This document shows, piece by piece, positions 11,622 to 48,784 of a DNA stretch of 53,417 nt (position 1 is the first letter of the stretch; the number at the start of each line of letters is the position of its first letter). The position numbers and the translations under genes are program-made. The DNA is taken from positions 1 through 53,417 of IMG/VR virus record IMGVR_UViG_3300032278_000010; one strand, 5' to 3'. The stretch is from a virus. Its lineage: Duplodnaviria; Caudoviricetes. The notes under the pieces are model-generated. The model made no database searches. It had not been told where the DNA came from and saw only the letters and a list, made by a program, of their open reading frames with translations.

Positions 11622-11770
11622 AATTTCTCCTTTTTAGATTGAAAATGCTTATATTCTTTTATCATTTCTGCTACTAGATCGAAAATTTCATCTAAGTCCT
11701 TTGGGTCTTGTTCTTCTAGTAATTTAGTTAATTCCTCAATTAGAGTATTCTTATGTTTACGCATATAGTG

Positions 11771-11855
11771 TGCCCTTGGGTGGCCTCGAACCACCGACTT
11801 ACCGTTTCTTCTCCTCAGAAGAATACAGTTGCTTTACCAGCTAAGCTACAAGGGC
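11771..11855 (-). tRNA. tRNA-like gene with 12-nt expansion of the anticodon arm (no canonical anticodon loop)
   Basis: Acceptor GCCCTTG/CAAGGGC+A; D-arm GCTT-AGCTGGTA-AAGC; T-arm GGTGG-TTCGAGG-CCACC; anticodon stem ACTGT/ACGGT encloses 19 nt; no encoded CCA. Confidence 0.8.
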
Positions 11856-12434: not shown

Positions 12435-13460
12435 TTATAAATCTAACCTTCCTTCTATTAACATACTTGCAGCTTGTGAACAGATAGGCTGAACTGAGCA
12501 GTATTTACATCGTATAGCCATAGCTGGAAAGTGTTTAACTATTCCAGTTCCTTTTTCAGCTAGATGTACCTGAGCCTCAGTTTCTGGATGTTCATATTTA
12601 TCATATCCAAACACTTTACTGGCTCTATCTGTTTTAGCTGGATTAGCATAATATTTATATTTTTCAGTATTTCTTCTAATCCAAAGATCTTCATTAGTAC
12701 ATTCTGGTAATGATTCTTGAGGTAATGCTATTGCATTAGTAATAGCCTGCAATCTTTGTTTAATAAAATTTTCAGTTTCTTCAATACTCCATAATGGATA
12801 AGATTTAGTTGCTACTTTTAAAGAGGGGTAGTCTTCTTTATTATAGCTTTCTTTTTTAAATTTGCGTTTCTCTGCAATACTCCAGTCTGTAAATAAATAA
12901 TGAATTTGTATATAATCATTAGTAATTTTATCTGGATTTAACCATCTATAAATACTTCCTTGTTTAATATAGTCTTCTTTATTACTTTGATTAACATAAG
13001 CCCATGTGCTTGTAGATTTATAGTCATGAACAGTTCCTTCCATAACTAGATCGTATTTACCAGAAATGATAAATCCGTCGAGTTCTTTTTCAGCTCGTTG
13101 TTCTATATAAATTGGTATTTCCCCGGGGTTTACTTCTTCTGGGTTAACTCTGAGAGTATCTATAACATTGTCAGAAGCCCCAAATAATTCCAAAGCTTTT
13201 ACTACGTTATTTCGATTTGACCATGCAGCTTCACATGCTGAATGTAAAGCATTACCCATAGTTGAGGCTATTAAGTCTGAGACTTCTACAGTTTTCTGTG
13301 ACTCAGGATTTTGCTTTCGTAATACTATTTCACGTAAGGGTTTAAGTAAACCTGTAGCGCTGATTGAATTAGATCTATTATCATAGTCATAATTGTCATG
13401 CATTAGAAATACAGCTAATGGTAATGACACATTATTCTTATTTGTAAATTCAAATGCCAT
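12435..13460 (-). CDS. PD-(D/E)XK (Cas4-like) nuclease (N4 gp42-like)
   Basis: ISATGLLKP, EQR, SGKYD, DYKSTS, QGSIY and C-terminal CKYC...C. Confidence 0.85.
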   Translation of the reverse strand: MAFEFTNKNNVSLPLAVFLMHDNYDYDNRSNSISATGLLKPLREIVLRKQNPESQKTVEVSDLIASTMGNALHSACEAAWSNRNNVVKALELFGASDNVIDTLRVNPEEVNPGEIPIYIEQRAEKELDGFIISGKYDLVMEGTVHDYKSTSTWAYVNQSNKEDYIKQGSIYRWLNPDKITNDYIQIHYLFTDWSIAEKRKFKKESYNKEDYPSLKVATKSYPLWSIEETENFIKQRLQAITNAIALPQESLPECTNEDLWIRRNTEKYKYYANPAKTDRASKVFGYDKYEHPETEAQVHLAEKGTGIVKHFPAMAIRCKYCSVQPICSQAASMLIEGRLDL

Positions 13461-13710
13461 ATATTAACCTTTCTGTTTTAAGGATATTTAAATGTTGTTT
13501 ATAATTAGTACCTTTAGGCAGATCTGTTAATAACATTACGCAGTCTGCTTCAGCTGCTTTTTTCCAATCTTTTATTGTACCGCTAGAATCCACCCAATCT
13601 CTTCTGAATAAACATTCGTCAAATGGTATATCGTACCATCTAGGAAGCCATTGATCTTTTATATTAGGATTAATGATTCCACCTATACATAAATACTTAT
13701 ATTTTTTCAT
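13450..13710 (-). CDS. hypothetical protein
   Basis: 86 aa, overlaps both neighbours. Confidence 0.6.
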   Translation of the reverse strand: MKKYKYLCIGGIINPNIKDQWLPRWYDIPFDECLFRRDWVDSSGTIKDWKKAAEADCVMLLTDLPKGTNYKQHLNILKTERLIYGI

Positions 13711-15011
13711 GAGTTTATATACACGTTTTCGCTGGCTCTAGTTAAAGCAACATAGAATAGCCGTGCTTTAGTAATTTTATCTCTACATTTATCTATATTT
13801 GTTTTGTCAATAAATACAGCTGGGAATGTTCCACCTTGAGCTTTATGAGTCGTACCTGCAAAAGGTGGGCGTAAATCTGCTAAAGCATTTTTAATATCAT
13901 AATAGTGTACCCAATGTGATTTATCTTTTTCTTTGATAGCTTGTTTCTTATATTCAGCTAAAACTTTATTAGCGGCTGTAGGCGTGATAGGTGAGAATAC
14001 TTTTTTAACATCAGTTTTAAGATACTCACAAAAGTCTCCTCGTACTGTTACTAAATAGCCAGGAATACCCATATATTCTGCATCTTCATATTGCATAACG
14101 CGGATTGTTTCATTATTAGTTAATATTATTTTTTCGGATTCCATCACTACGCTATTAGCAATTAGTATTTCCCCGGGATAAAAAGGTTGCACTACATCTT
14201 CTAAAAAATATGAAGCTTTACGAATCATAGCATTATAATTAATTGCGGATTCGTTAGTATATGTACATAGAGGCACATCCACATAAGTTCCTACAGTATA
14301 GTTCATATATTTACTAACAAATTTCGATACAAAATCTGTATGTGGTAATACATGAATACCGTTTCCATTATTATTAACTAAGCTTTCCAGTGTAGGTTCG
14401 ACACTAATATTTCCTTTTATATATTCACGAAATTCGGTAGCTTTAGCTAGAATTGGATTATCTTTAAGTTGTCTGTGAATTGTAGTAAGGGTAAAGGTAG
14501 GTAATGAACCATCGAAGATACAACATTTATCTTTTGGAGGAGGAAGTTGATAGTTATCTCCTACAAATAGTAATTTTAAATTCTTTTTCTTAACTATATC
14601 TACGATAGCTTTTAAAAATGAATTACCAATCATAGAAGCTTCGTCAATAATAACTAAAGATCCTGGTTTAATTTTACAACTGCCAGAAGATGTAATTAAT
14701 TCTTTACCTGAAGCACTAACAGTAGGACGTAGTTTAAATAATTTATGCGCAGTGGTAGTTTGGTCCTTTCCAATTAATACTATAGTATCGGCTAGTACAC
14801 GAGCTGCTCTATGAGTGCTTGCACACAAAGCTACTGGGATCATATCGTTAATATCTTTAGCTCGTTCTATAATTTCTCCTATTACGGTAGTCTTACCAGT
14901 ACCCGCCGATCCGGTAAGAACAGCTATTTTATGCGTATAAGATATTAGGTGAAGTTGTAACGTGTCACATATACCACTTATCGCATCAAGCTGATCTTGT
15001 GAAAAGTTCAT
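13707..15011 (-). CDS. Dda/RecD-like SF1B DNA helicase (N4 gp37-like)
   Basis: GSAGTGKT, ASTHRAA, IIDEASM, GDNYQLPP, THKAQG, YVALTRA. Confidence 0.95.
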   Translation of the reverse strand: MNFSQDQLDAISGICDTLQLHLISYTHKIAVLTGSAGTGKTTVIGEIIERAKDINDMIPVALCASTHRAARVLADTIVLIGKDQTTTAHKLFKLRPTVSASGKELITSSGSCKIKPGSLVIIDEASMIGNSFLKAIVDIVKKKNLKLLFVGDNYQLPPPKDKCCIFDGSLPTFTLTTIHRQLKDNPILAKATEFREYIKGNISVEPTLESLVNNNGNGIHVLPHTDFVSKFVSKYMNYTVGTYVDVPLCTYTNESAINYNAMIRKASYFLEDVVQPFYPGEILIANSVVMESEKIILTNNETIRVMQYEDAEYMGIPGYLVTVRGDFCEYLKTDVKKVFSPITPTAANKVLAEYKKQAIKEKDKSHWVHYYDIKNALADLRPPFAGTTHKAQGGTFPAVFIDKTNIDKCRDKITKARLFYVALTRASENVYINS

Positions 15012-17436
15012 AAATCTCCTTTAGTGTTGCATTATTATTTAATGGAACTAATGTATCCCAAGATTTACCTATTTCTAGCGTAGCTTTCATAGGAACATCT
15101 ACAGATTTAATCACTTTATGATCGTTCCATTCCATTTCTTCGATAAGTATATCGTTTAAAAATTTAATATAATGTGGGTCATTTCTAACTATGAAATAAC
15201 CAGCATCGTGGATCATATTACATGGAAGAATATCCTGGCTATGGCCAGCTTCTTCTATACGCCGGTTAGTTGCATTCATAGCTCTATTAAGTAGCATCCC
15301 CCAGGATTGAGTTATTGCATTATTAGCACTACGAGCTTCTTTATCTGCTTCGTGTGGTGTTCTAGAATTGCCTAGAATACACTGCGATATTATTGGAGTC
15401 CTTAGTTTTAAACCAAATGCGCACTCTACGTATCCATGTTCTTCCATAAATTGTGTATTCTTTTTATTGAATTCTTTAGATACTTTATATAATTCATGAA
15501 ATGCTTTCTCAATTTTAGTAGCTTGATTCATCGGAAATCCGGTTCTCTTATGAAGAGTATAAGCTGTGCCCATATATTGTAGAGCAAAGGTAGGTCCTTT
15601 AGATCTACGTCTTAGTTCTGGGTATTTATTTTGAATAGAATTGATACTATCTACATCTGTTGGATCTATATCAGGCATTTGATCTGCGAAATATGTTTGA
15701 GCTCTTAGTGAATGCCCATCATAGCCGTCGGTGTATACCTTAATTCGATTGGGGTCCTTACTTAGAATAGCTCCTATACGTTCTTCTAGAGCTGAGAAAT
15801 CTGCACCTGCAAACAACCAACCATCTGGGGCTACTATACAACTTTTAATAAGTTTTCCCATAGAGCCATGGGCTGGAAGGTTTGTTAGATTAGGAGAATT
15901 ACTGGATAGTCTTCCTGATTGAGTTCCTCCTAATTTTAGATTGCCATGAAGGACATCAGTTTCTTTCATAAAAGCTTTAATAAATGTCCCATCAATTTTG
16001 TCTACTTCAGATAATTCCTGAATAAATTCTAATAAATCTAGAATATCCTGGTCTGTAGTATGATTTGCTAAATCTTTAAGTGTCTGTCCTCCTGTAGCAG
16101 GTGCTCCGGATTTAGTTTTATCTAATATTGGTAATTTTAAATGACCAAATAATAAAAGAGCTAATTGTTGATGACTACTTGGATTAAACTGAACGTCATA
16201 AAATTCTTTTATAGTTTTAACTAATTTCTTTAATTTAGAATTAGCTGTTGTACACGCTACTCTTTGTAAAGTTTTAGTGAATTTTTTAACATGTTTGTTT
16301 TCTTGAATTTGTTCATGTAGTACTTTATTTTTAGCTTCCAAAATATTATGAACATCCATTACTCGTTCTGAGCTCATTGGTAATCCAATCAGCATCATCT
16401 TGGTTAAAGTATATAAACTAGGTTTAAATATTTCTAGATAAGCTTCAGAAGATAATTGTTCTATATAAGTTTCGTAGGCATAGAAAGTAGCTAATGCGTC
16501 AATTAAATTATATTGTAGTATTTCTTTTTTTGTATGTTTGGTGATATCGGTGAGTTCGATAGCGTAATTGCCTACGTACTCTAATGCTATCTCTTTTAAT
16601 CCTAAGGATATTGGAGTAGTAGCATTTTTAGCTAAATAAGCTAGTATCATGGTGTCGTCAAAAGTTTTGAAATTATGCAATCCCCGCATCATCCCTTCAT
16701 AATCTTTATCATGTTCCATCCATAAACTATGAACTAACATTTTTACGTCAAATAAACCATTATGGAATATGAGTTGGCCTCTGTATTTTTCAAAGAAATC
16801 CTTAAGCCAATAGATACCAGTAATTGAAATATCAATTGCTGCACCATCATGCTTAGTCCATGCAAATGCAATAGATATTAAATTGTCATGTAAATCCAAT
16901 CCTGTAGTTTCAATATCTACTGTGAGTACTTGGTGTTGGTACAGATGATCCAAAATATCTCTGTCAGATCCATGAGCAAAACCATATTCAGCAGAATTTA
17001 TGAGTTGAGTATTACCATTAGAAGTGATTGCTTTAATACCTGCATCAATTAATCGAATATTTTCTGGTTGTTTAAATAAAGATTTATAATTTGGAATATA
17101 TACACAGCTGTATTTTTCATAACCGGGATAAGCGCCATTAAGCACTGCACCGTAATAGTCAGAAACTTTAGCTTTTTTAGTAATAACCTTAAAGTAATTA
17201 CTATCAGCTATAATCATGTTAGTAACTGTTTCAGGAATCTTTATGATAAGCTTATCTAAGTAAGCTTTAGCAGTTTTGGCTACTATCTTTGTATCTGTAT
17301 TATATATAAGCGGTAAAGGCAGGACGTCTCCTTTACTTATACCTGCTGCTTCTAATTTGTCTAAATATTGTGATGAGATTTCTGCATAGTTATCTAATGC
17401 ATTTTCTTTACACAGTAGGACAGTAGTGATCGACAT
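14986..17436 (-). CDS. family A DNA polymerase (N4 gp39-like)
   Basis: Exonuclease motifs DIETTG, HNGLFD and YNLID; GTQSGRLSS; motif A DFSALE; motif B RRRSKGPTFALQY; motif C IHDA. Confidence 0.95.
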   Translation of the reverse strand: MSITTVLLCKENALDNYAEISSQYLDKLEAAGISKGDVLPLPLIYNTDTKIVAKTAKAYLDKLIIKIPETVTNMIIADSNYFKVITKKAKVSDYYGAVLNGAYPGYEKYSCVYIPNYKSLFKQPENIRLIDAGIKAITSNGNTQLINSAEYGFAHGSDRDILDHLYQHQVLTVDIETTGLDLHDNLISIAFAWTKHDGAAIDISITGIYWLKDFFEKYRGQLIFHNGLFDVKMLVHSLWMEHDKDYEGMMRGLHNFKTFDDTMILAYLAKNATTPISLGLKEIALEYVGNYAIELTDITKHTKKEILQYNLIDALATFYAYETYIEQLSSEAYLEIFKPSLYTLTKMMLIGLPMSSERVMDVHNILEAKNKVLHEQIQENKHVKKFTKTLQRVACTTANSKLKKLVKTIKEFYDVQFNPSSHQQLALLLFGHLKLPILDKTKSGAPATGGQTLKDLANHTTDQDILDLLEFIQELSEVDKIDGTFIKAFMKETDVLHGNLKLGGTQSGRLSSNSPNLTNLPAHGSMGKLIKSCIVAPDGWLFAGADFSALEERIGAILSKDPNRIKVYTDGYDGHSLRAQTYFADQMPDIDPTDVDSINSIQNKYPELRRRSKGPTFALQYMGTAYTLHKRTGFPMNQATKIEKAFHELYKVSKEFNKKNTQFMEEHGYVECAFGLKLRTPIISQCILGNSRTPHEADKEARSANNAITQSWGMLLNRAMNATNRRIEEAGHSQDILPCNMIHDAGYFIVRNDPHYIKFLNDILIEEMEWNDHKVIKSVDVPMKATLEIGKSWDTLVPLNNNATLKEIYELFTRSA

Positions 17437-24047: not shown

Positions 24048-24065
24048 TCTAATCGGCGTAGCCGA
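24048..24065 (-). promoter_or_regulatory. vRNAP hairpin promoter for the RNAP II gene
   Basis: Template-strand TCGGC-GTA-GCCGA, 5-bp stem with GNA triloop. Confidence 0.75.
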
Positions 24066-24206
24066 CCTAAAGGAATGTAAGTTTATTAATTTAGTAATTA
24101 GCTAGTTAATGCTACTATAAGATGGCCTCCTATATAAAAGACCGCAAAACAAAGAGTTACTATAGCAAAATAATTTAAATATCTGTCTATTTCCATTATA
24201 TTTCTC

Positions 24207-24470
24207 CTATAATTCACGGTAACCTGCTTTACCGAGTTTTACCTCAGCTTCAGTACGCAGTTCTTCAGTGATATCTAAGGTTTGTTCTAAATCTTTAATT
24301 TTAAGTCTTAATTTACAGATTTCAGCTTTTTTATCATGTAAAGCATTTTCTTGGTCTTTAATTATTCCTAATAAACCGGAGTCGGATTCATTATTAATCG
24401 GTAAGATGTCTTTAACTAGCGGTACCATTCTCACAACTCTTTCTATGTTACGTAGTGATGGTAATTTCAT
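24207..24470 (-). CDS. hypothetical coiled-coil protein
   Basis: Start likely MKLPSL after GGAGG SD. Confidence 0.6.
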   Translation of the reverse strand: MKLPSLRNIERVVRMVPLVKDILPINNESDSGLLGIIKDQENALHDKKAEICKLRLKIKDLEQTLDITEELRTEAEVKLGKAGYREL

Positions 24471-24490
24471 TGCTCCTCCTTTGTTAGTAA

Positions 24491-24685
24491 TCAACAAATA
24501 GTCTCCATTTCGGGTATTGCTCTTATTTCTTCTGGATCCTCCCTGATACATGGCGTTAATTCGTGTTCTTGTATATACTTTTCTGCTTCATGTCGTGAAT
24601 CAAACTTAATAGTGCGTCCTTCTTCATCTCCCATTACTGCTGGAACATAATTAATTGGGATATTTTGAACTAGAACCCATTTCAT
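24491..24685 (-). CDS. hypothetical early protein
   Basis: 64 aa, GGAGG SD. Confidence 0.6.
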   Translation of the reverse strand: MKWVLVQNIPINYVPAVMGDEEGRTIKFDSRHEAEKYIQEHELTPCIREDPEEIRAIPEMETIC

Positions 24686-24699
24686 TAGAACCTCCAGGA

Positions 24700-24921
24700 T
24701 TAAGAATATGTTGGTTTATTTTTAAGAAAATCAGAAATAGGAACGCATCCGAAGGCTGAATAACTAGCACCTACTTCATTAAGTATTTTTATAGCTCTGT
24801 CTCTTTCTTCTATGCATGTTTGTTGTGCATGATACTCTCCAATATTATGGATGTATTCTACACTATAAGGTTGACTAAATACTATCATCAGAAGGATATA
24901 AGCGCTCATGTTAGTTTCCAT
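24700..24921 (-). CDS. hypothetical early protein
   Basis: 73 aa, hydrophobic N-terminus, two Cys. Confidence 0.55.
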   Translation of the reverse strand: METNMSAYILLMIVFSQPYSVEYIHNIGEYHAQQTCIEERDRAIKILNEVGASYSAFGCVPISDFLKNKPTYS

Positions 24922-25204
24922 TTCTTGGGGGTTTGTCTAAACTGTCTTTAAATTCTGCGTCTTCTTGAGCTAATCTATCCGCATTTTTTTCTAACCATTC
25001 ATGATAAGCATCAGCTACTTTATGCTTATCTGCCTGAACTTCAATACAATGATTGTATGAAGCTCTTTTTGATATATGTAACATACTTTCAATCAAAGAT
25101 TTTCTAGTATAAGTATCTGTATAATTTGTTGCTTTGTATTTACATTTAAAATACTCTTGTAATAGTAATGCTAATAGCTTATCAAATTCGTTACTAAAGG
25201 TCAT
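24911..25204 (-). CDS. hypothetical early protein
   Basis: 97 aa, GGAGG SD. Confidence 0.6.
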   Translation of the reverse strand: MTFSNEFDKLLALLLQEYFKCKYKATNYTDTYTRKSLIESMLHISKRASYNHCIEVQADKHKVADAYHEWLEKNADRLAQEDAEFKDSLDKPPRNGN

Positions 25205-25386
25205 CGAATTTTCCTCCTTTTAATCATGAACTGAGAAATATTTCTTCTTTGGGTCTCGTTTCTTACCAATCAAAGCTTTTTTAATAGCAATATCACTATT
25301 AGTAGCTTTGACTCTATCTATCTTAATTAGTTCACTTTTTGTAACTTCATAAATAGTATATCGCATTGGCACTATCCTCGAAAGAC

Positions 25387-25419
25387 GCGCCTTGCTCACC
25401 TAACGGTGAGCGCAGGCGC
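25387..25419 (-). terminator. stem-loop after HNH gene
   Basis: GCGCCT..GCTCACC-TAAC-GGTGAGC..AGGCGC hairpin; weak U-tract. Confidence 0.45.
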
Positions 25420-25441
25420 TGATTAATATCAGTAATAATAG

Positions 25442-26095
25442 CTATGCTGCCTTTCTTTTCTTTTTAGGTTTATAAAGTTTACCGCCATTCAACTTCTTTG
25501 CTTGGTTACAGTTTGCACATAATAGTTGGTATCTTTTCTTACGATCTGGATCTCTTAGATAATGCCTTAGTTCTATACTACCTAAACTTCCGCCAGATTT
25601 TATAACAGGATTTTCTATATGACCGTCATTGTAAACGTGGTCAATTTGAAAATACATAGGATCATTTTCTCCACAACCTTTGCATTTACCGCCTAACAGT
25701 CTATGCAATTCTTTTTTATTTACTTCTCTTTGGTCTTTGTACTTCTTTGCCATACGGTCAAAGTGTTTTCTCCTATAGTTTTTAGCCATAACTGCTGCTC
25801 GGACTGGGCATTTCTTACAGTACTTTTTAGTCCAAGAACGCATGCTTACTAGCTCATTACATCCTTTTGAAGAACAAACAATATCTGATTTGCTCTTGTT
25901 TGCTTTATTTAAACATTTCATATTACAAAAGTGTGTCTTTCTCTTACCTTTTACTTCCCATGGACATCTTATAAACTGATTACCACACATATTGCATTGT
26001 ATTAACCATTTCACTCGTTTTCTGGTATTTAATACACGAACGAATCCTGTGTAGTCGCCTTTCTTTACAACGTATGGTATAGATTTAATAATCAT
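25442..26095 (-). CDS. zinc-finger HNH endonuclease
   Basis: Several CxxC pairs; CKGCG...QIDHVYNDG...YQLLCANCN. Confidence 0.8.
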   Translation of the reverse strand: MIIKSIPYVVKKGDYTGFVRVLNTRKRVKWLIQCNMCGNQFIRCPWEVKGKRKTHFCNMKCLNKANKSKSDIVCSSKGCNELVSMRSWTKKYCKKCPVRAAVMAKNYRRKHFDRMAKKYKDQREVNKKELHRLLGGKCKGCGENDPMYFQIDHVYNDGHIENPVIKSGGSLGSIELRHYLRDPDRKKRYQLLCANCNQAKKLNGGKLYKPKKKRKAA

Positions 26096-26127
26096 TAGAT
26101 CTCCTTTAAAGTTACTATCTTATTCCT

Positions 26128-26162
26128 AAAAAAGGAAACTGGGAGCAGTACCCCCAGTTTCC
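26128..26162 (-). terminator. intrinsic terminator
   Basis: GGAAACTGGG/CCCAGTTTCC 10-bp stem followed by a T-tract on the minus strand. Confidence 0.75.
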
Positions 26163-26168
26163 AAATGA

Positions 26169-26543
26169 TTAGAACTCGGCAATAAGTTCATCACCATTAA
26201 TAGCTCTCTTAACATTACCAGTACGAGCGGCTTCCAATACTTCGTCTACGTCTGAAGAATCCAAACTAAGAGAAGCATCACCTGCAGTTACAAACCCGCA
26301 GAATTTAACTTCGGTATCAGTCTTATACATTACCTTAAGACTTTTACCCTCTGTTTCTAACAACGACATATTGCCATTGCTAAACAGGGACTTAACTTTC
26401 TCAGGCGTTAAGCCTTTAGAAGAGCTAAGATACTGAGCAGGTTCAAAATAACGCTCGGACTCGCCCAAAGTAAACCTAAGCTTAGGAGCTCTAGATTTGT
26501 CTTCGGTTTTAACTTTGTTATAAGTATTAGTTTTAACACTCAT
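26169..26543 (-). CDS. early protein with its own promoter and terminator (possible gp2-like RNAP II cofactor, by position only)
   Basis: MSVKTN start after GGAGG SD; monocistronic unit. Confidence 0.55.
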   Translation of the reverse strand: MSVKTNTYNKVKTEDKSRAPKLRFTLGESERYFEPAQYLSSSKGLTPEKVKSLFSNGNMSLLETEGKSLKVMYKTDTEVKFCGFVTAGDASLSLDSSDVDEVLEAARTGNVKRAINGDELIAEF

Positions 26544-26608
26544 AATACTAATTCCTCCAAATGGAATAGAATTTGGATATGCTGTGCCCTTGTTTGGGTT
26601 CACAACAA

Positions 26609-26624
26609 CCTACTAGGCGTAGCC
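26609..26624 (-). promoter_or_regulatory. vRNAP hairpin promoter
   Basis: CCTACTAGGCGTAGCC. Confidence 0.75.
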
Positions 26625-26721
26625 AGAACTTAATTAGATGTGAGATTAAACAGAAAGCAGGGTTTCATACTAAGGAGGGTTTTAGGCAGTAACGGCTCTC
26701 TCAAGCCGTTCTGCCCTGCAT

Positions 26722-27084
26722 TTACCACCAAGAAGAGTAATACACTTTATTACCCTCATTGATATAACCTAGAGCTTTAACACAAAACTCTAAGTCTTGT
26801 AATCTATAATGCTTATCTGCATTACCACCATAGAAGCATCCTGTTGTTTCAGGGAGTTTTCCTTCAATGATAGTACTAGCTAAATCATGAACATCCTGCC
26901 AAGATAGTTCAACAGGTGCACAATTGAATTCTCCTTTCCCGCCTCTCTTTCTCCAGAGAGCTTCCATATAACCTTGGAGGTTCGGGTGTTTCCTCCAAGT
27001 AGCAATATCTACCTGAACTTCCTGCGGTTCTCCATCTATCTCCCCGCCGTTCTCTTTAAAATAAGCAACTTGGTCTAATCCCAT
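26722..27084 (-). CDS. phage hypothetical protein
   Basis: MGLDQ...WRKHPNLQGYME...FNC...YYSSWW pattern, GGAGG SD. Confidence 0.75.
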   Translation of the reverse strand: MGLDQVAYFKENGGEIDGEPQEVQVDIATWRKHPNLQGYMEALWRKRGGKGEFNCAPVELSWQDVHDLASTIIEGKLPETTGCFYGGNADKHYRLQDLEFCVKALGYINEGNKVYYSSWW

Positions 27085-27115
27085 GATCTATCCTCCATGT
27101 TTAGGGTTTTAATTA

Positions 27116-27131
27116 TCTAATAGGCGTAGCC
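27116..27131 (-). promoter_or_regulatory. vRNAP hairpin promoter
   Basis: TCTAATAGGCGTAGCC; upstream ACCTGCC/GGCAGGT hairpin. Confidence 0.75.
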
Positions 27132-27472
27132 AACCTAACCTGCCCGTTAAGGCAGGTCAGTATGGTTGTTAGGATCGTCAAAGATGGTGTAATCACAACT
27201 TTGGTCATGTTCGGAGCAACCATTACAAATATCAGGTTCTCCTTTATAACTTTCATACTCGAGCTCTTTACCGCAAGATGAACATTTAAACGTATCAGGA
27301 CTCATTGTTATTCTCCTAAGTAAGGATCTTTCTTTAATTCAATGATTGTACGCTCAGCTTGTCTAGCTAAGGATTCTATTTTAGCTTTATGCCATTCATA
27401 AACCCAAATGGCTTTAATCTCGTCACAGCCCTCTTTCCAAATCTGTTTAAGTGCATCAAACATAATTACCTC

Positions 27473-27703
27473 CTAAAAGTTTATGTATTCTAGTTTAATT
27501 ATTACAGGATTTTGATAAATGGATAAAGTAATGGGATTGTCTAATGTTGCTGCCGCTTCTTCAGCTGTATTATATTCCCTGGTCGTAAGTACCAGTACTG
27601 GAATTTTTTGGTCTTGTCCGTTTTCATCTGGTCCAAGACTTATAGGTTTGTACATTGGATTGTCATGTTGATAAGCTATTTGGTATTTCCATGTTATAGG
27701 CAT
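27473..27703 (-). CDS. hypothetical early protein
   Basis: 76 aa, AGGAG SD. Confidence 0.6.
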   Translation of the reverse strand: MPITWKYQIAYQHDNPMYKPISLGPDENGQDQKIPVLVLTTREYNTAEEAAATLDNPITLSIYQNPVIIKLEYINF

Positions 27704-27752
27704 GGTTTCTCCTTCTAGGTTAAAGTTTATAGGTAATAGAGTAGAGTAAGGT

Positions 27753-28240
27753 CAGTGGTCGTACGCATCCACCTCACCCTAAAACGGGTGTGTTCCCATT
27801 TACTCTTAAAAGGCACCGCTCGCTAACTACCACTGGCTTGATGCAGTGTTCCGTAAATCTGGGGAGACGCTCACACCTACCTCTATTCAAATTAAGTAGA
27901 GGCAGCACCCGTATCGGAACTAGCCTAGTTGTCCTCTGCAATAGAGCACCTCGACCCTGAACTTGCGGTATACTGCCTCTTATATTAAGTGGTACGAGCT
28001 GCCCATTACATGAAGTCATCGTTAGATTGTTAGGCGTGTATAGCCTCTCTTATCTCGATGTCAACATGGGTCGTTAGTCTCTCTGCCACTTTATAGAATT
28101 TGTTAAGGCAATCAAGCCTACCGCCTTTGATAATGGAGAACGGTCTCCCTTTCACCTCTTGGGCTAGCTATCGGATTCTAGCTAGCTTGCATCACGCAAT
28201 CGGTAAGCCCCATAGTTACAGCACACGTGACCACTGTAAC
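27753..28240 (-). ncRNA. candidate large (about 490 nt) structured ncRNA
   Basis: Ends pair (CAGTGGTC/GACCACTG); many nested helices; GC-richer than flanks; no credible ORF; lies just downstream of a vRNAP promoter. Confidence 0.65.
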
Positions 28241-28361
28241 GCTTTAACTGAGGCTAAATTCAATCTTCCATAATAACCAATCTCCTAATTAAAGGGTGGC
28301 TAGAGACTATAGCCGTATGCTCAGGCTTATAGTCTCTAGTCTTGGGGTAAGTTTCTGAATC

Positions 28362-28377
28362 TCTGCTAGGCGTAGCC
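28362..28377 (-). promoter_or_regulatory. vRNAP hairpin promoter
   Basis: TCTGCTAGGCGTAGCC. Confidence 0.7.
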
Positions 28378-28699
28378 CAGTTTTAGCAGTTGTTGTAAAG
28401 ATCACATAACTTACCATAAGGGTAGTTATTAGCTGTTTCCCATTCATTAATACGGTGCGCTACTGTAAACATACTGCTTGTAAAAACAGTCAGAATAATG
28501 ATCCAAATTGCTAAATGTATTAGACTACGCATGTTACCTCCAGTGTTTTAAGAAGATTATGGCTCCTGTTAAGCCAATAGAGGCAATTATTCCTACCAAT
28601 GTATAAATAATTGTCCAAGTAGTTTCTATAGTCATGATGTCTCCTTCTTTTAAGATTAGACCCTACGACCAGCTAGCGCTGGTCTCGGGTCTTTAAAGA

Positions 28700-28948
28700 T
28701 TAATAATTATTTGCATGTGGATCGTTGATAACTGCGTTTATAGTTGCATGAGGATTCTTAACCTCAGAATCTAATATAAACGCGTATTCAGCATCCGTAG
28801 CATTCAAGCTATAAGACGCAATTTCAGGATGCCCTTCAACGTATCTATGCAGTTCCTGCTTGGATGGTGTTCCAGTAACCCAAGAAGGAACAAAACCTTT
28901 ACTCTTTAACTCAGTTGTTAAATGGATAATGATTTCTTTTAAAGTCAT
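28700..28948 (-). CDS. hypothetical early protein
   Basis: Start likely MTLKEII after AGGAG SD; followed by hairpin at about 28658-28692. Confidence 0.6.
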   Translation of the reverse strand: MTLKEIIIHLTTELKSKGFVPSWVTGTPSKQELHRYVEGHPEIASYSLNATDAEYAFILDSEVKNPHATINAVINDPHANNY

Positions 28949-28974
28949 TAGATATCTCCTATAGTTAATTAAGT

Positions 28975-29160
28975 AAGCAGTTTCACGCATGCTCAGGCGT
29001 TGGGATAACCACTGAACTACTAAGATACCTAACTATGGTCATCCTGTTCGTTAGGTAAATGCAAGGAGTGACCTTGCAGTAATGACCGTGAGTACTACCT
29101 CACAGCCCTAGCAACCACGCTAGTAATAGCTTAGCCCTTTCTAAAGGGGCTAAAGATCAG
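28975..29160 (-). ncRNA. candidate structured leader RNA
   Basis: Five consecutive hairpins and two possible pseudoknots between promoter 29176 and the SD of 28948. Confidence 0.5.
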
Positions 29161-29175
29161 AATGGTTAGATCCGA

Positions 29176-29191
29176 CCTAATAGGCGTAGCC
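29176..29191 (-). promoter_or_regulatory. vRNAP hairpin promoter
   Basis: CCTAATAGGCGTAGCC; upstream ATCTGCCC/GGGCAGAT hairpin. Confidence 0.75.
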
Positions 29192-29532
29192 CATACCTGA
29201 TCTGCCCATTAGGGCAGATGATCTTTGTTAACAGGTATAGGCTTCTGGATCATTACCCATACCAACAGTATAAGAACTGATGGTAGGGCAATGATCATGC
29301 CTATAGTCAAACTGAAGTAGTACCCAATTTGTTTAAGCATTTTTCCTCCCAGAGTAAATGACCATATCTCCAACACAACCCATGTATGATGGGCAGCTTT
29401 CTTCTCCTACAACACCATAGCCGTCATCCAATTCCTTGACTTCTTCCTCGGTGATTATTTCTAGATAACCACAAGTATCACACATAATATCCACATACTT
29501 AGTCATGTTAGTCTCCTAAATAAGTTAATAAC

Positions 29533-29548
29533 CCTAATAGGCGTAGCT
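29533..29548 (-). promoter_or_regulatory. vRNAP hairpin promoter
   Basis: CCTAATAGGCGTAGCT; SD and ATG at 29506 follow. Confidence 0.7.
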
Positions 29549-29721
29549 AAAGGTTTTTAAGGTTTTAAAGGTCTCTTAACAAACAACAAATCTCTCTGTG
29601 CACTCTCTTATTGTATTATCTTATGTGTGGCTTTTAATTCGCCTTTGACCTTTGTTGGTTTCCAAACGAAACGCTGGAGACCCTGTACGGTCAGGTATTA
29701 GAATCTCCAGTGGCGTTAGGT

Positions 29722-29961
29722 TTAGATTTCCGCGTCTATAGCGGCACATTCAGCAATAGCGATATCTCGGTCGATACCAGATGCGACTGCTTCTTCAACC
29801 GTTCGGTTGGTTTTGATTTTGCACTTAAGCTTTTGAACTTTACGCTCTTCGATTATGGTATCGGTAAGCATGGAAGTTCCGTGGTATGTACCTTTGAATA
29901 CCACTGTTACGGTTTTACAACCTGTTTCTACTGCTGTTGAAGCTGCGTCAAGTACTTGCAT
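29722..29961 (-). CDS. first early gene (N4 gp1 position)
   Basis: 79 aa, AAGGAG SD, directly after the first hairpin promoter. Confidence 0.6.
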   Translation of the reverse strand: MQVLDAASTAVETGCKTVTVVFKGTYHGTSMLTDTIIEERKVQKLKCKIKTNRTVEEAVASGIDRDIAIAECAAIDAEI

Positions 29962-29994
29962 TTGATTCTCCTTATTATAAGGGTTAGTTTGACG

Positions 29995-30010
29995 TCTACT
30001 AGGCGTAGCC
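29995..30010 (-). promoter_or_regulatory. first vRNAP hairpin promoter
   Basis: TCTACTAGGCGTAGCC. Confidence 0.75.
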
Positions 30011-30299
30011 CTTCGCCTTGTGTAAAAAGATCGTTTTTTACCTTATGCGGGGGGGTTGACTCTGTCTGGTCTTTGCCAGCCAGTTAGTATTGCATCCGTA
30101 CCTAAAAATAAAAAATTTCACGCGGGCTGAGACCATCTTAATGGTTACGTCCCACCACACTGCGACCAAAGCGAGAACGCGCCTGTGGCGCGGGCGAAGC
30201 TTTGGGAGTCTAATAATATTTATATAATAAGAGCAGCGCTGTGCTTCTTATTCTTAGAGGTGGATTACTCTTTTAGTTAGAGGGACTTACAGGATCTAC

Positions 30300-30355
30300 A
30301 ATCTCATATCTGAGATTAAACAGGGCAGTTAACTCTCACATCTGAGATTAAACAG
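30300..30355. repeat. two 22-bp direct repeats with an internal palindrome
   Basis: TCTCAYATCTGAGATTAAACAG at 30302-30323 and 30334-30355; partial copy TGAGATTAAACAG at 26641-26653. Confidence 0.85.
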
Positions 30356-30394
30356 AAGTTAAGTGTTGCATTATGTAGTTTTTTAGGTATTATC

Positions 30395-30616
30395 GTGCTT
30401 GCTATGAGGAGGTATACGGAGGTGCACAAACACAGAAATTACTTGTACACAATCGAGAAGAAAGAAAAAAATAAATGGATACTGGATTGGGACTGCGGAG
30501 CATACATAAGTTATGATGTTGCAGAGCAGATCATGCAGGATTTTGAAAAATATAATAAACATCCTGGTAAATACAGGATTGTCATGTATATCAGTGAAAA
30601 GCCCCACGACGAGTAG
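30395..30616 (+). CDS. hypothetical protein
   Basis: ORF after a TTGCAT-N16-TATTAT sigma70-like promoter; start may be the GTG at 30422 after GGAGG. Confidence 0.5.
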   Translation: MLAMRRYTEVHKHRNYLYTIEKKEKNKWILDWDCGAYISYDVAEQIMQDFEKYNKHPGKYRIVMYISEKPHDE

Positions 30617-40066: not shown

Positions 40067-40411
40067 ATGCAATTAACAAAAAAACAATTAGCAGTTTTAA
40101 ATCATGTAGTAATAGATGGTCAGTTGTGGGCTGATAATGCAACAGAAGAACATATGTTAGCAAAAGTTGCAAGATGGGAAGTTGATTATGAAACAGCGTT
40201 AGCTAAAGGTGATTATAAAACTCGTAAACAAAGAGATGATGTTGATGTGCAGAGAGTACAAGACGAACGTGATAATGTTTCATATGCTGTTAAACGAAAG
40301 CGTGAATACCCATCTGAAGGCGATCAACTAGACAAAATTTACCACGATGGTATAGATGCGTGGAAAGCCGATATGATTAAACCAGTTAAAGATAAATATC
40401 CAAAGGAATAA
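40067..40411 (+). CDS. tail-fibre chaperone-like protein
   Basis: C-terminal RKREYPSEGDQLDKIYH...VKDKYPKE. Confidence 0.7.
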   Translation: MQLTKKQLAVLNHVVIDGQLWADNATEEHMLAKVARWEVDYETALAKGDYKTRKQRDDVDVQRVQDERDNVSYAVKRKREYPSEGDQLDKIYHDGIDAWKADMIKPVKDKYPKE

Positions 40412-40417
40412 ACTATG
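40322..40417 (+). repeat. near-identical copy of 42702-42797
   Basis: Both encode DQLDKIYH.GIDAWKADM.KPVKDKYPKE* plus the next ATG; mostly synonymous differences. Confidence 0.85.
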
Positions 40418-42353: not shown

Positions 42354-42791
42354 ATGGATAGAGTATGTCGTTTTGTTGGAGAGTCACATATTAGGTATAA
42401 CAAAGGTGATATTATTTCTATTCAATCAGGGGGTGATACTGAAAATTTCAGAAAACAATATAAGGCTCACCTTACAGATGATGAATGGGAGGAATATAAA
42501 GCCTCTATTCTTGATACGCTCAAACAAAACGCTTTACAAATTAGTTATAACGATAAAAATCTAACCGAAGCAGAGATTCAGGTTCAGTGGGAAGATGCTG
42601 ATGGTACACATTGGGCAGATTTGGATGCACAAGGTAAAACTTACGAAAATTCAAAAATAACTTATGATATGAAACGAAAAAAAGCATACCCTAAAGTTAG
42701 GGATCAACTTGACAAGATTTATCACGAAGGCATAGATGCGTGGAAGGCCGATATGGTTAAACCAGTGAAAGATAAATACCCAAAGGAATAA
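42354..42791 (+). CDS. tail-fibre chaperone-like protein
   Basis: C-terminus nearly identical to 40067..40411. Confidence 0.7.
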   Translation: MDRVCRFVGESHIRYNKGDIISIQSGGDTENFRKQYKAHLTDDEWEEYKASILDTLKQNALQISYNDKNLTEAEIQVQWEDADGTHWADLDAQGKTYENSKITYDMKRKKAYPKVRDQLDKIYHEGIDAWKADMVKPVKDKYPKE

Positions 42792-42794
42792 ATT

Positions 42795-43523
42795 ATGAGT
42801 ATAACCAAAGTAACAGGAATGATGCAAACAGGTACAAAAGGTGGTGACATACCATCTGCCGGTACTATGGTTATTGATACAGACGGTGATTATTTTGATA
42901 TTACTGGTACTACTGGGATTACTGGTATGACCGTAGCAGCAGGAAGACGATTCACTCTACAGTTTGATGGGGCAGTAACAATAACAGACAACGCTGCTAT
43001 TACCTTATCTGGAGCCGCTAACTTTACAACTGCTGCAGGGGATATTCTGTCATTTATTGCTGTAGCAGCTAACACAGTTGTACAGACAGGCTACTCATTA
43101 GTGGATGGCGGTAGTCCAGTAGCTCCTAGTGGTGGTGATACAGTTACTCAATTCGCAAGGAAAATATATATCCACGATCTTACTGCCGCAACTGGAACAG
43201 TAGCTCTTACTGGTGTTGGATTTGTCCCACAGTTAATTATGTTTATTTGTAATAAAGATCAAGAACTGGCAGGTGGTATTGGTTTTTCAACTGGTTCAGG
43301 GGCAAATAACTGGGGTTGGTACTTTGAAGATGATTCTACAGAAACTTCTGGTAACGCTAATAGTTATTTTAGTTATTATTGGAGCAATACTGGTGGGCAT
43401 TACAAAAGTTTTGCGGTCAATTCTCTTGATGCGGATGGTTTTACTGTTGGGTGGGCTAAAACAGGCACAACTACTGGTAGTTATTATATTGAGGCGTTAT
43501 GCTTTAGATTCATCGCTGATTGA
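42795..43523 (+). CDS. tail-fibre-like protein
   Basis: MSITKV, FDITGTTGIT, NFTTAAGD, TGVGFVP, DADGFT. Confidence 0.7.
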   Translation: MSITKVTGMMQTGTKGGDIPSAGTMVIDTDGDYFDITGTTGITGMTVAAGRRFTLQFDGAVTITDNAAITLSGAANFTTAAGDILSFIAVAANTVVQTGYSLVDGGSPVAPSGGDTVTQFARKIYIHDLTAATGTVALTGVGFVPQLIMFICNKDQELAGGIGFSTGSGANNWGWYFEDDSTETSGNANSYFSYYWSNTGGHYKSFAVNSLDADGFTVGWAKTGTTTGSYYIEALCFRFIAD

Positions 43524-48049: not shown

Positions 48050-48068
48050 AACCGTAAAGGAGTATAAG

Positions 48069-48695: not shown

Positions 48696-48784
48696 AACAG
48701 GCCATTTTCGCCAATACCCTACTATGCCTTTGGTCGAGTTCTGGCATTGTAGGGTATCTGGCGAAGCCTTTTTTTTAGGAAAAC

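What the first reader, a model, noticed from the sequence alone, without database searches (positions are those of the whole stretch)
27753..28240. Large (about 490 nt) highly nested ncRNA candidate expressed from an early promoter
Seen: the ends pair (28229-36 with 27753-60, 8 bp). Internal helices include GCTAGCTA/TAGCTAGC (28163-86), TTGCG/TGCAA (28187-99) and a GGAGA-based hairpin (28135-48). AAGTGG/CCACTT (28086-91/27987-92) encloses CCCAT/ATGGG, then CATCG/CGATG, then AGGC/GCCT. There is an imperfect 11-bp hairpin at 27877-905, AACTA/TAGTT (27918-30), CACTG/CAGTG (27831-48), CACCC/GGGTG (about 27775-90) and long-range AAAGGC/GCCTTT. The 5' strand can alternatively form GTTACAG/CTGTAAC. 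I found no RNase P, tmRNA or complete group I signature. Inference: a possibly new large phage ncRNA, comparable in scale to ROOL/GOLLD/OLE, made immediately on infection.
Basis: partly seen in the sequence, partly recalled or inferred. Interest (0 to 1): 0.82.

Follow-up and report, generated by a model that had tools for sequence, protein, structure and literature searches.

The report
Shuffled structured RNA modules in phage leader
The flagged stretch is not one big RNA but a row of four separately folding, previously undescribed RNA domains in the untranslated leader of an early operon of an uncultured marine N4-like phage, and related phages mix and match the same domains like cassettes.

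Summary
The window is an N4-like phage contig. On the minus strand, 27704-28362 has stops in all six frames and no Rfam, tRNA or tmRNA match. The global picture does not hold. The 8-bp "end pairing" is perfect in 1 of 6 arrays that carry both partner modules. The parts also occur separately in other contigs.

The region is SD + 3-codon mini-ORF, then modules A, B, D and C, then the SD of a 76-aa ORF. Pattern scans found relatives only in marine viral and metagenome contigs, with arrays such as A-B-C, A-B-E-F-C, A-B-F, A-C, A alone and C alone.

Covariation supports the modules:
- **A:** 16 sequences, 16 of 36 pairs with double changes.
- **B:** 7 of 28 pairs.
- **C:** 4 of 48 pairs.

In all 11 class-1/2 contexts the mini-ORF stop ends exactly 4 nt before helix P1 of module A. 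Function is unknown. I lean towards autonomous factor-binding RNA domains carried in an early mRNA leader. These are new RNA motif families of moderate to high interest.

The parts
28362..28377 (-). Promoter-like motif GGCTACGCCTAGCAGA (GGC-TAC-GCC mini-hairpin), likely start of the transcription unit
   Evidence: Pattern GGCTACGCCTNNTAGA gives 7 matches, all on the minus strand between 24048 and 30010, against 0.29 expected. The same motif precedes module A in L002/L035. Its role as a promoter is inferred by analogy with the hairpin promoters of N4-like phage LUZ7 (passages of PMC9163698).
28301..28340 (-). 5' leader hairpin (15-bp stem, 9-nt loop) between the promoter motif and the SD
   Evidence: Read. 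Present in L021 and L040, absent in L002.
28260..28286 (-). SD (AGGAG, 28286-28282) plus mini-ORF AUG GAA GAU UGA (28271-28260); the stop ends 4 nt before P1 of module A
   Evidence: All 11 distinct class-1/2 upstream contexts have an SD, a start, 3-4 codons (MED, VED, MLED, MGH, MPEN, MPEY, MHKH) and a stop exactly 4 nt before P1. In class 3, L024 has MCDP with the stop 5 nt before P1, and L002/L040 have a 17-codon ORF that runs into the module.
28102..28255 (-). Module A: P1 28255-50/28211-06, P2 28240-32/28223-15, P3 28199-96/28190-87, P4 28186-79/28170-63 with invariant loop GAAUCCGA, P5 28148-44/28139-35, P6 28119-16/28109-06. Invariant linkers GAUGC, CCCAAG and GGCGGUA.
   Evidence: Model R3 hit at 28098-28265, 215 bits. 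Alignment A9: 16 distinct sequences, 36 pairs, 94.1% of cells paired, 16 pairs with changes on both sides, reached by 0 of 500 shuffles, slid controls 26-53%. Helix variants are listed.
27984..28093 (-). Module B: outer helix AAGUGG/CCACUU (28091-86/27992-87), inner helices, conserved core GUUGACAUCGAGAUAAGAGAGGCU...GCCUAACAAUC.AACGAUGACUUCAUGUA
   Evidence: Model R1 hit at 27984-28093, 95.6 bits. Alignment A5: 7 sequences, 28 pairs, 94.3% paired, 7 pairs with double changes, reached by 0 of 500 shuffles, slid controls 26-43%.
27898..27980 (-). Module D: closing helix AGAGGCAG/CUGCCUCU (27980-73/27905-27898) enclosing two hairpins (CUCU/AGAG, AACUA/UAGUU)
   Evidence: Also present in L048 at about 96% identity. 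There the closing helix changes C-G to U-A, plus two one-sided changes that keep pairing. A 151-nt contig of run X19 covers 27892-27993 with 1 difference and unrelated flanks. Only 2 sequences are held, so the evidence is thin.
27735..27887 (-). Module C: P1 AAUAGAG/CUCUAUU (27887-81/27741-35). Sub-domain I (AGGUGU...GUGCCU) with an extension. Sub-domain II (AGAGUAA..GG/CC.UUACUCU) encloses hairpins CACCC/GGGUG and GGUGG/CCACU.
   Evidence: Model R2 hit at 27723-27898, 196 bits. Alignment A6: 7 sequences, 48 pairs, 99.4% paired, 4 pairs with double changes, reached by 2 of 500 shuffles, slid controls 35-66%. Occurs alone in L014.
27473..27720 (-). A/U-rich spacer CUAUAAACUUUAACCUA, SD AGAAGGAG and the 76-aa ORF (27703-27473) that follows the array
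   Evidence: No Pfam family for the ORF. No intrinsic terminator or sigma-70-like promoter on the minus strand inside the array.

Best explanation
The flagged region is the untranslated leader of an early or middle operon of an uncultured marine N4-like phage. It is built from four autonomous structured RNA domains in tandem, A-B-D-C, on the minus strand at about 28255-27735. A Shine-Dalgarno site and a 3-codon mini-ORF head the array, and the mini-ORF stop lies 4 nt before the first helix of module A.

Shown here:
- Each domain has its own closing helices.
- Each recurs in related contigs, alone or in other combinations with further module types E, F and G.
- A, B and C keep their helices through compensatory changes, while loops and linkers (GAAUCCGA, CCCAAG, GGCGGUA, AUGGGAACA) stay invariant.
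- None matches an Rfam family.

Inferred mechanism:
- A phage RNA polymerase makes the array as part of the mRNA, starting at the GGCTACGCC motif.
- A ribosome loads on the mini-ORF and stops at the foot of P1, which covers the 5' end and influences folding of module A.
- Each domain then presents its invariant loops to a conserved host or phage factor.

I read the domains as portable RNA effector or binding cassettes, accessory early functions comparable to protein host-takeover or anti-defence genes, rather than regulators of the particular ORF that follows.

Odds: real modular array of structured RNAs about 0.85; factor-binding effector cassettes about 0.4.
For: Context. N4-like phage: virion RNA polymerase phrog_2206 at E 6e-109, and N4-like RNAP phrog_2166/2051, primase, DNA polymerase and terminase.

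Non-coding. Stops in all 6 frames. No Rfam hit over the window except one tRNA. Only 3 sub-threshold chance hits at E<=10. No hits in 7 related loci or in the L012 array.

Homologues. 4 loci and 3 loci in IMG/VR. 18 true of 34 in the metagenome scan. 0 true of 11 in 185,579 species genomes. None in GenBank phages.

Modularity across 41 sources. The models find A in 17, B in 8 and C in 8.
- A+B+C together: 5 (window, L010, L049, L012, L022).
- A+B without C: 3 (L021, L032, L048).
- A directly followed by C: L033.
- C, then an ORF, then A: L034.
- A alone: L011, L019, L002, L040, L024. L029 is cut at its 5' end but an ORF follows A directly there too. L027 is cut 3' of A, so its content is unknown.
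- C alone: L014.

Close relatives share the flanks at 82-88% DNA identity but carry different module sets.

Covariation.

Strand. G-U pairs fill 25 of 458 cells in A and 31 of 319 cells in C. These would be A-C mismatches on the other strand. The gene orientation and the SD/mini-ORF agree with the minus strand.

Mini-ORF geometry.

Downstream ORFs. At least 4 unrelated ORFs follow C and at least 5 follow A.

Contigs from RNA libraries. Contigs of relatives hold module C joined to a downstream SD and ATG (X18, 665 nt), part of module A (X18) and module D (X19).
Against: - No experiment shows the transcript, its ends or any binding partner.
- The RNA-library contigs are from relatives (<90% identity for C), carry no strand or end information, and may derive from DNA.
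- There is no terminator after any module, and a contig joins C to the next ORF. That fits a purely cis-acting leader at least as well as trans-acting effectors.
- Sequence sets are small and closely related: 7 sequences each for B and C, and effective sequence numbers of 0.9-1.3 in the models. Shuffle controls overstate significance for related sequences, and alignment A9 was fitted to the model's structure.
- Module D rests on 2 sequences.
- The order A<B<D<E<F<C/G is never inverted within an array, so common descent of one larger RNA with optional domains is not excluded.
- Whole-region MFE z-scores are unremarkable.
Confidence: 0.5

Rival explanations
1. General cis-acting leader. The modules are nuclease-resistant or ribosome-recruiting 5'-UTR cassettes. 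They stabilise and boost translation of whatever early ORF follows on transcripts made by a fast phage RNA polymerase. The mini-ORF acts as a ribosome-loading 5' stabiliser.
For: - The array is always on the gene strand, directly upstream of an ORF that has its own SD.
- No terminators lie inside or after the array.
- An RNA-library contig joins module C to the downstream start.
- SD plus mini-ORF sits at a fixed distance from P1.
- Other leaders in the same operon also carry hairpin runs, at 29000-29170.
Against: - A single 5' hairpin already sits at 28301-28340, and simple stabilisers need neither multi-branched folds nor invariant loops kept across classes whose stems have diverged.
- At least seven distinct module types, and differing module sets between near-identical phages, look like accessory functions rather than one housekeeping role.
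- No SD-sequestering or terminator/antiterminator alternative structure is seen.
Confidence: 0.3
2. One large ncRNA of 490 nt or more. A and C are the conserved 5' and 3' domains of a single fold, and B, D, E and F are optional central insertions, as in other large bacterial or phage ncRNAs.
For: - A is first in every array, and C is last in 6 of the 9 multi-module arrays (window, L010, L049, L012, L022, L033).
- The module order is never permuted within an array.
- In the window an 8-bp A-C pairing exists.
Against: - A alone is followed directly by an SD and ORF in 6 loci, and C stands alone in L014 with the same conservation.
- In L034, C lies upstream of A with an ORF between them.
- The A-C pairing is intact in 1 of 6 arrays.
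- Each module closes on itself.
Confidence: 0.08
3. Self-processing or ribozyme array. One or more modules are new self-cleaving or RNase-guiding elements that cut the early polycistronic RNA at the A/U-rich linkers (CUUAAU, CCUUAAC).
For: - Invariant junction nucleotides and compact multi-helix folds.
- Conserved A/U-rich linkers between modules.
- Module F of relatives contains CUGACGAG...GAAAC.
- An RNA-library contig ends inside the 5' strand of module C, next to adapter letters. This is a single contig and a weak hint.
Against: - No ribozyme family of Rfam matches, even at E<=10.
- The F segment has no stem II hairpin between the two motifs, so it is not a hammerhead. This is my reading and recalled hammerhead anatomy.
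- No evidence of cleavage.
Confidence: 0.08
4. DNA-level cassettes. The hairpins act in DNA as recombination or promoter/terminator modules, like the promoter-early stem-loops of T4-type phages, and the RNA structure is incidental.
For: - Cassette-like shuffling between relatives with short shared linkers (CTTAAT, AAATTCTA).
- N4-type polymerases use DNA hairpin promoters.
Against: - Many G-U pairs would be A-C mismatches in the complementary strand.
- Multi-branched folds with invariant loops.
- One-sided changes such as U-A to U-G and C-G to U-G keep RNA pairing.
- The GGCTACGCC motif is absent inside the array.
Confidence: 0.04

Closest known systems
ROOL, GOLLD, OLE and raiA large structured ncRNAs
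   Same: Phage- or bacteria-encoded, highly structured, of unknown or only recently emerging function, and first found by comparative genomics.
   Different: No match to any of them at gathering score or at E<=10. Here the unit is a 90-215-nt domain, not a 500-800-nt fold. The domains are shuffled between genomes and sit inside an mRNA leader headed by a mini-ORF.
Promoter-early stem-loop (PeSL) cassettes of T4-type phages
   Same: Small modular elements in the hyperplastic early regions that travel with accessory ORFs and differ between close relatives.
   Different: As I recall them, PeSLs are simple promoter-plus-stem-loop DNA or RNA elements. The modules here are multi-helix folds with covariation, invariant loops and no promoter motif inside.
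Putative sRNA cluster of N4-like phage LUZ7 (PMC9163698; passages read)
   Same: Non-coding RNAs in an N4-like phage, possibly produced by processing.
   Different: In LUZ7 they lie between orf69 and orf70 and are late transcripts under 250 nt. No sequence or structure family was defined there that I could compare. The supplements were not available.
HK022 put RNAs and other cis-acting leader RNAs just downstream of early promoters (recalled)
   Same: Structured RNA placed right after an early promoter, acting without being translated.
   Different: put RNAs are two stem-loops of about 70 nt that act on host RNA polymerase. Nothing here shows antitermination, and the polymerase is probably a phage enzyme.
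Tandem riboswitch or aptamer arrangements
   Same: Several independently folding, highly conserved aptamer-like domains in one 5' leader.
   Different: No known aptamer class matches. No expression platform, meaning no terminator or SD-sequestering helix. The downstream genes are unrelated to one another.
Ribosome-loading 5' stabilisers and minigenes (STAB-SD, lambda bar minigenes; recalled)
   Same: An SD with a start and a 2-4-codon ORF that is not a real gene, sitting at the 5' end of an RNA.
   Different: Here the stop is locked 4 nt from a conserved helix of a structured RNA in 11 of 11 class-1/2 contexts. I know of no described case of that coupling.

Membership tests
Any Rfam 15 family (includes ROOL, GOLLD, OLE, raiA, HEARO, IMES, group I/II introns, RNase P, tmRNA, 6S, ribozymes, riboswitches, pRNA) | Covariance-model score at or above the family's gathering score | tested here: not met
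   Whole window: only tRNA at 11771-11855. Region 27400-28700 at E<=10: 3 hits of 13-19 bits against cut-offs of 35-85. 7 related loci: 0 hits. L012 array at E<=10: 2 chance hits.
tRNA / tmRNA | Cloverleaf or tRNA-like domain with tag ORF, detected by ARAGORN | tested here: not met
   ARAGORN finds one gene in the window, tRNA-Gln at 11770-11855, and nothing in 27700-28400.
Group I intron | Interrupts a gene whose exons join into one ORF; P3-P9 core | tested here: not met
   No Rfam Intron_gpI hit. The downstream ORF has its own SD and start. Module A alone (168 nt) is flanked by a 3-codon ORF and an independent gene.
Protein-coding gene (81-aa ORF 27774-28019, or a gene read in another code) | Open frame conserved in relatives | tested here: not met
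   TAA, TAG and TGA all occur in every frame, so no single stop reassignment opens a frame. The ORF spans B, D and C, whose content differs among relatives.
Single large ncRNA (ROOL/GOLLD-like in kind) | Conserved long-range helices tying the 5' and 3' parts into one fold, with the parts not occurring separately | tested here: not met
   End pairing intact in 1 of 6 arrays. A alone, C alone and other combinations exist.
Conserved structured RNA motif (generic criterion) | Helices maintained by compensatory substitutions above controls | tested here: met
   A: 16 of 36 pairs with double changes, 0 of 500 shuffles reach this. B: 7 of 28, 0 of 500. C: 4 of 48, 2 of 500. Slid-partner controls give 26-66% paired against 94-99% observed. 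Caveats: few, related sequences, and A9 was fitted to the model.
Hammerhead ribozyme (module F of relatives only) | CUGANGA, then a stem II hairpin, then GAAA, in a three-way junction | tested here: not met
   No Rfam hammerhead hit on the L012 array. The 12 nt between CUGACGA and GAAAC do not form a hairpin (read). The core anatomy is recalled.
N4-like (Schitoviridae-type) early transcription unit | Virion RNAP gene present; hairpin promoters with a 3-nt loop upstream of early genes | tested here: inconclusive
   vRNAP and N4-like RNAP II are present. The GGC-TAC-GCC motif occurs 7 times on the gene strand, but its stem is only 3 bp against >=4 bp in LUZ7. Better 5-bp hairpins lie at about 30300-30355. 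No transcription start data.

The most novel reading that the evidence does not exclude
Marine N4-like phages carry a combinatorial toolkit of at least seven autonomous structured RNA domains. The domains are expressed at the onset of infection from one leader, headed by a ribosome-loaded mini-ORF locked to the first helix. They are trans-acting RNA effectors (decoys, sponges or aptamers for host proteins, nucleases or signalling molecules). That would be an RNA counterpart of the protein anti-defence or host-takeover islands in phage early regions, exchanged between phages as cassettes.
Probability: 0.2. Interest if true: 0.88.

Novelty: new variant of a known kind. Interest (0 to 1): 0.64.

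Why it matters
Structured non-coding RNAs with well-supported folds and no known family are rare, and each has historically led to new biochemistry. This locus offers several new motif families at once, A, B and C, with D-G as further candidates. They sit in a phage group known for an unusual three-polymerase transcription programme.

Two features are not ordinary for leaders or sRNAs:
- Modules are exchanged like cassettes between otherwise near-identical phages.
- The mini-ORF stop codon sits exactly 4 nt from the first helix of module A.

If the modules bind host or phage factors, they would be RNA-based accessory functions of the earliest infection phase. If they are only stabilising leaders, they still define portable expression elements for transcripts made by single-subunit RNA polymerases. 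Models R1-R3 make the question testable in viromes and at the bench.

Tried and rejected
**Known RNA families.** Rfam at gathering score and at E<=10, and ARAGORN, gave nothing.

**Coding or recoded gene.** Rejected: all three stop codons occur in every frame.

**DGR template or other repeat.** The region has no second copy in the window. The 135-nt repeat D1 is the shared C-terminus of two paralogous ORFs.

**Group I intron, tmRNA-like and T-box-like readings.** Rejected on anatomy and the lack of Rfam hits.

**Hammerhead in module F.** Rejected (see membership test).

**Thermodynamic stability as evidence.** Weak, with z of -1.9 and -2.9.

**First model of module C.** RNAalifold on 4 sequences gave a 19-bp closing helix. 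I dropped it once the short form in L022 was added.

**RNAalifold on class-1 module A alone.** It gave an alternative fold that the other classes do not support. I supplied my own structure for R3.

**MAFFT alignment A4.** It misaligns the 3' strands of P1 and P2 between classes, so it was not used for counts.

**Retrieving relatives through neighbouring proteins.**
- The 120-aa protein gave 8 loci, of which only L002 held a module.
- The RNAP gave only 2 loci.

**Wasted scan.** (module B pattern) found 0.

**Distant N4-like relatives.** 0 of 5 whole records hold A or C at E<=1. The tool warns that an empty answer shows little.

**RNA.duplexfold of A against C.** Uninformative (first part).

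**Sequencing runs.**
- X20 laid nothing.
- Outside 26425-26497, 27730-27871 and 28158-28193 (X18), and 27892-27993 and 28086-28179 (X19), the RNA-library runs gave no cover. That is no evidence of absence, because the contigs come from relatives.
- DNA run X15 covers the whole stretch.

**Literature.** Four searches found nothing on structured RNA arrays in Schitoviridae or N4-like phages within the held library (passages of PMC9163698 read). Supplements are closed, and the LUZ7 supplement might list further RNAs.

Full report
**Context.**
The window is an IMG/VR virus record of 53,417 bp, estimated 74% complete. It is an N4-like phage:
- ORF 3-5156 matches virion RNA polymerase (phrog_2206, E 6e-109).
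- ORF 22226-23977 matches N4-like RNA polymerase families (phrog_2051 at 5e-90, phrog_2166 at 6e-43).
- Primase, DNA polymerase, Dda-like helicase and large terminase are also present.

Genes from about 5.4 to 30.3 kb lie on the minus strand, and genes from 30.4 kb onward on the plus strand. The flagged region therefore sits about 2 kb into the leftward early operon, among small ORFs with no Pfam family.

A motif GGCTACGCCTNNTAGA occurs 7 times, all on the minus strand between 24048 and 30010, against 0.29 expected. One copy lies at 28362-28377, just upstream of the region. In the N4-like phage LUZ7, nine early promoters were mapped, most with a hairpin of >=4 bp and a 3-nt loop, and the start lies 13-14 nt downstream of the hairpin centre (passages of PMC9163698). 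The motif here has a GGC-TAC-GCC mini-hairpin, so a phage-polymerase promoter is a reasonable inference. Whether it is early or middle is open, because better 5-bp hairpins lie at about 30300-30355.

**The observation.**
- The stretch 27704-28362 has 9-19 stop codons in each of six frames, with all three stop types in every frame.
- GC rises to 0.45-0.485 against 0.33-0.40 in the flanks.
- Rfam gives only one tRNA in the whole window and three chance-level hits at E<=10 in 27400-28700.
- ARAGORN finds no tmRNA.
- Whole-region folding energy is only modestly better than shuffles: z -1.93 on the minus strand and -2.86 on the plus strand.

**Relatives and modularity.**
GenBank phages hold nothing similar. 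A contig whose neighbouring protein is 92% identical (L002) shares the flanks, but in place of 28348-27167 it carries about 490 nt of other sequence: a divergent ~200-nt RNA element followed by an unrelated 86-aa ORF. The first sign of structure was a hairpin there whose stem had changed on both sides (GCAAGUCA/UGACUUGC against GCUAGCUA/UAGCUAGC) around an unchanged loop.

Pattern scans built on the invariant loop and linkers gave:
- 4 IMG/VR loci.
- 3 more for the 3' part.
- 34 metagenome loci, of which 18 are true homologues and 16 are GC-rich chance or coding matches.
- 11 matches in 185,579 species genomes, none true.

Several of the true contigs are marine, by their record names and by the runs that hold the window.

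The sequences show that the region is a tandem of separable modules.
- The window has A-B-D-C.
- L010 and L049 have A-B-C.
- L012 has A-B-E-F-C.
- L022 has A-B-E-F and a short form of C.
- L032 has A-B-F.
- L048 has A-B-D-F-G.
- L021 has A-hairpin-B.
- L033 has A-C.
- L034 has C, then an ORF, then A.
- A stands alone in L011, L019, L002, L040 and L024. L029 is cut at its 5' end but also has an ORF directly after A.
- C stands alone in L014.

Covariance models confirm the inventory. Over 41 sources (305 kb), R3 finds A in exactly the 17 expected places and in none of the 16 chance loci or the 7 distant relatives. R1 finds B in 8 sources and R2 finds C in 8. Whole records of five more distant N4-like contigs hold neither A nor C (0 of 5). 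The last module is always followed by an A/U-rich spacer, an SD and an ORF, but the ORFs differ between contigs. No terminator or sigma-70-like promoter lies on the minus strand inside the array.

**Structure support.**

| Module | Alignment | Distinct sequences | Pairs | Cells paired | Pairs with double changes | Shuffles reaching this | Slid controls |
|---|---|---|---|---|---|---|---|
| A | A9 | 16 | 36 | 94.1% | 16 (64 cells) | 0 of 500 | 26-53% |
| B | A5 | 7 | 28 | 94.3% | 7 | 0 of 500 | 26-43% |
| C | A6 | 7 | 48 | 99.4% | 4 | 2 of 500 | 35-66% |

- **Module A.** Double changes occur in P1, P2, P4, P5 and P6. The alignment was fitted to the model, which favours the structure. An independent listing shows five P4 versions, two P1 versions (plus a separately anchored AGCCA/UGGCU helix in class 3) and three outer-P2 versions, all complementary.
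- **Module C.** The short form in L022 forced a revised model: a 7-bp closing helix, a variable sub-domain I, and a sub-domain II that holds two covarying hairpins and the invariant AUGGGAACA junction.
- **Module D.** It is seen in only two held sequences, with one compensatory change in its closing helix.

G-U pairs fill 25 cells in A and 31 cells in C. They would be A-C mismatches on the plus strand. Together with gene orientation, this places the RNA on the minus strand. All sets are small and closely related, so the shuffle controls overstate significance.

- The 8-bp end pairing is perfect only in the window. Three arrays have two mismatches, and two arrays have a class-2 module A that lacks the sequence.
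- The 11-bp hairpin at 27877-905 pairs strands that belong to the closing helices of D and C.
- The partners of the AAAGGC/GCCTTT pair stay conserved when the other module is absent.
- The 81-aa ORF spans B, D and C and cannot be conserved where D is missing or replaced.

**A new feature: the mini-ORF.**
Module A is always the first module. In all 11 distinct class-1/2 contexts it is preceded by an SD, a start codon and 3-4 codons of variable sequence (MED, VED, MLED, MGH, MPEN, MPEY, MHKH). The stop ends exactly 4 nt before P1. Class 3 has MCDP with the stop 5 nt before P1, or a 17-codon ORF that enters the module. From established ribosome footprints, a terminating ribosome there would cover the 5' strand of P1. 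The mini-ORF is therefore likely to be functionally coupled to folding or protection of module A. This is an inference.

**Expression.**
The window's DNA is held by 17 marine runs. In one metatranscriptome run (X18), a 665-nt contig of a relative covers module C (27730-27871, under 90% identity) and continues into an SD and ATG. Another X18 contig holds part of a class-2 module A. In X19, a 151-nt contig holds module D with one difference and foreign flanks. Contigs give no strand or ends, and DNA carry-over is possible, so this is weak support for transcription and further support for shuffling.

**Interpretation.**
The identity is well supported, at about 0.85: a co-transcribed leader made of autonomous structured RNA domains of new families, exchanged as cassettes within a narrow clade of marine N4-like phages.

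The function is not shown. Three observations point to domains that each bind their own conserved partner and act independently of the gene that follows:
- Loops and linkers stay invariant while the stems diverge.
- There are at least seven module types.
- Module sets differ between near-identical phages, and the downstream ORFs are unrelated.

I commit to portable RNA effector or binding cassettes at about 0.4. A general cis-acting stabilising or translation leader is the main rival at about 0.3; physical linkage to the mRNA and the mini-ORF favour it. A single large RNA, a ribozyme array and DNA-level cassettes are less likely.

**Comparison and novelty.**
No described family fits. The nearest known kinds are large orphan ncRNAs, T4 PeSL cassettes, put-type leader RNAs, tandem aptamers and ribosome-loading 5' stabilisers. 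Each shares one trait and differs in others. Four literature searches found no description of such arrays in N4-like phages within the held library (for LUZ7). I rate it a new variant of a known kind (phage-encoded structured leader or non-coding RNA), with a 0.2 chance of being a new class of RNA effector cassettes.

Noticed in passing
window 24048-30010, minus strand: GGCTACGCCTNNTAGA motif, 7 copies against 0.29 expected. Several copies are preceded by a terminator-like hairpin. These are probably promoters for a phage RNA polymerase that punctuate the early operon.
   Followed up: partly
window 29962-30400 (hairpins at about 30300-30355), minus strand: A 440-nt non-coding stretch at the head of the early operon, conserved at 74-90% in L040, L021, L003 and L004. 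It holds two copies of TTTAATCTCAGATRTGAGA (5-bp stem hairpins), which may be the true N4-type hairpin promoters. A GC-rich segment follows, ending in a T-run.
   Followed up: no
window 29000-29170, minus strand: Another leader. After the motif at 29176-29191 come four consecutive hairpins (about 170 nt) before the next ORF, partly conserved in L021, L003 and L004. Structured leaders seem to be a general habit of this operon.
   Followed up: no
window 11770-11855, minus strand: An 86-nt tRNA-Gln(CUG)-like gene with a normal acceptor, D and T arm. Its anticodon arm is extended to about 12 bp by a 16-nt insertion. It could be an intron, or a decoy or unusual tRNA.
   Followed up: partly
window 40283-40417 and 42663-42797, plus strand: A 135-nt direct repeat at 81% identity. 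It is the shared 42-residue C-terminus (...DQLDKIYH.GIDAWKADM.KPVKDKYPKE*) of two paralogous ORFs, 40067-40411 and 42354-42791. This is ordinary paralogy, not a DGR.
   Followed up: yes
window 3-5156, 46871-50839 and 12435-17436: A second exonuclease and a second PolA-type polymerase lie on the plus strand at the right end, duplicating those on the minus strand. The first ~500 residues of the vRNAP ORF also match a Dda-like helicase. The contig may be permuted or chimeric.
   Followed up: no
L012:6166-6392, L022:329-532, L048:1020-1246: Modules E, F and G of relatives share a hairpin flanked by AGUA...GAA, which I recall as a loop-E or sarcin-ricin-like bulged-G motif. Module F carries an invariant CCCGAAGGGCGACUGACGAGUUCCUGCCCUUGAAACCCC. 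No Rfam match.
   Followed up: partly
L024:about 400-560 and the far end of L029's printed stretch: A further shared non-coding element (…AAAACCGUGCUUCGCAUAUCGGGUGCU…) lies downstream of module A in two contigs. It is possibly another module type.
   Followed up: no
window 27871-27875 (run X18): The RNA-library contig covering module C stops inside the 5' strand of the module and runs into letters that I recognise, from recall, as Illumina adapter sequence. Fragments may end there. This is a single contig and a weak hint of an RNA 5' end.
   Followed up: no
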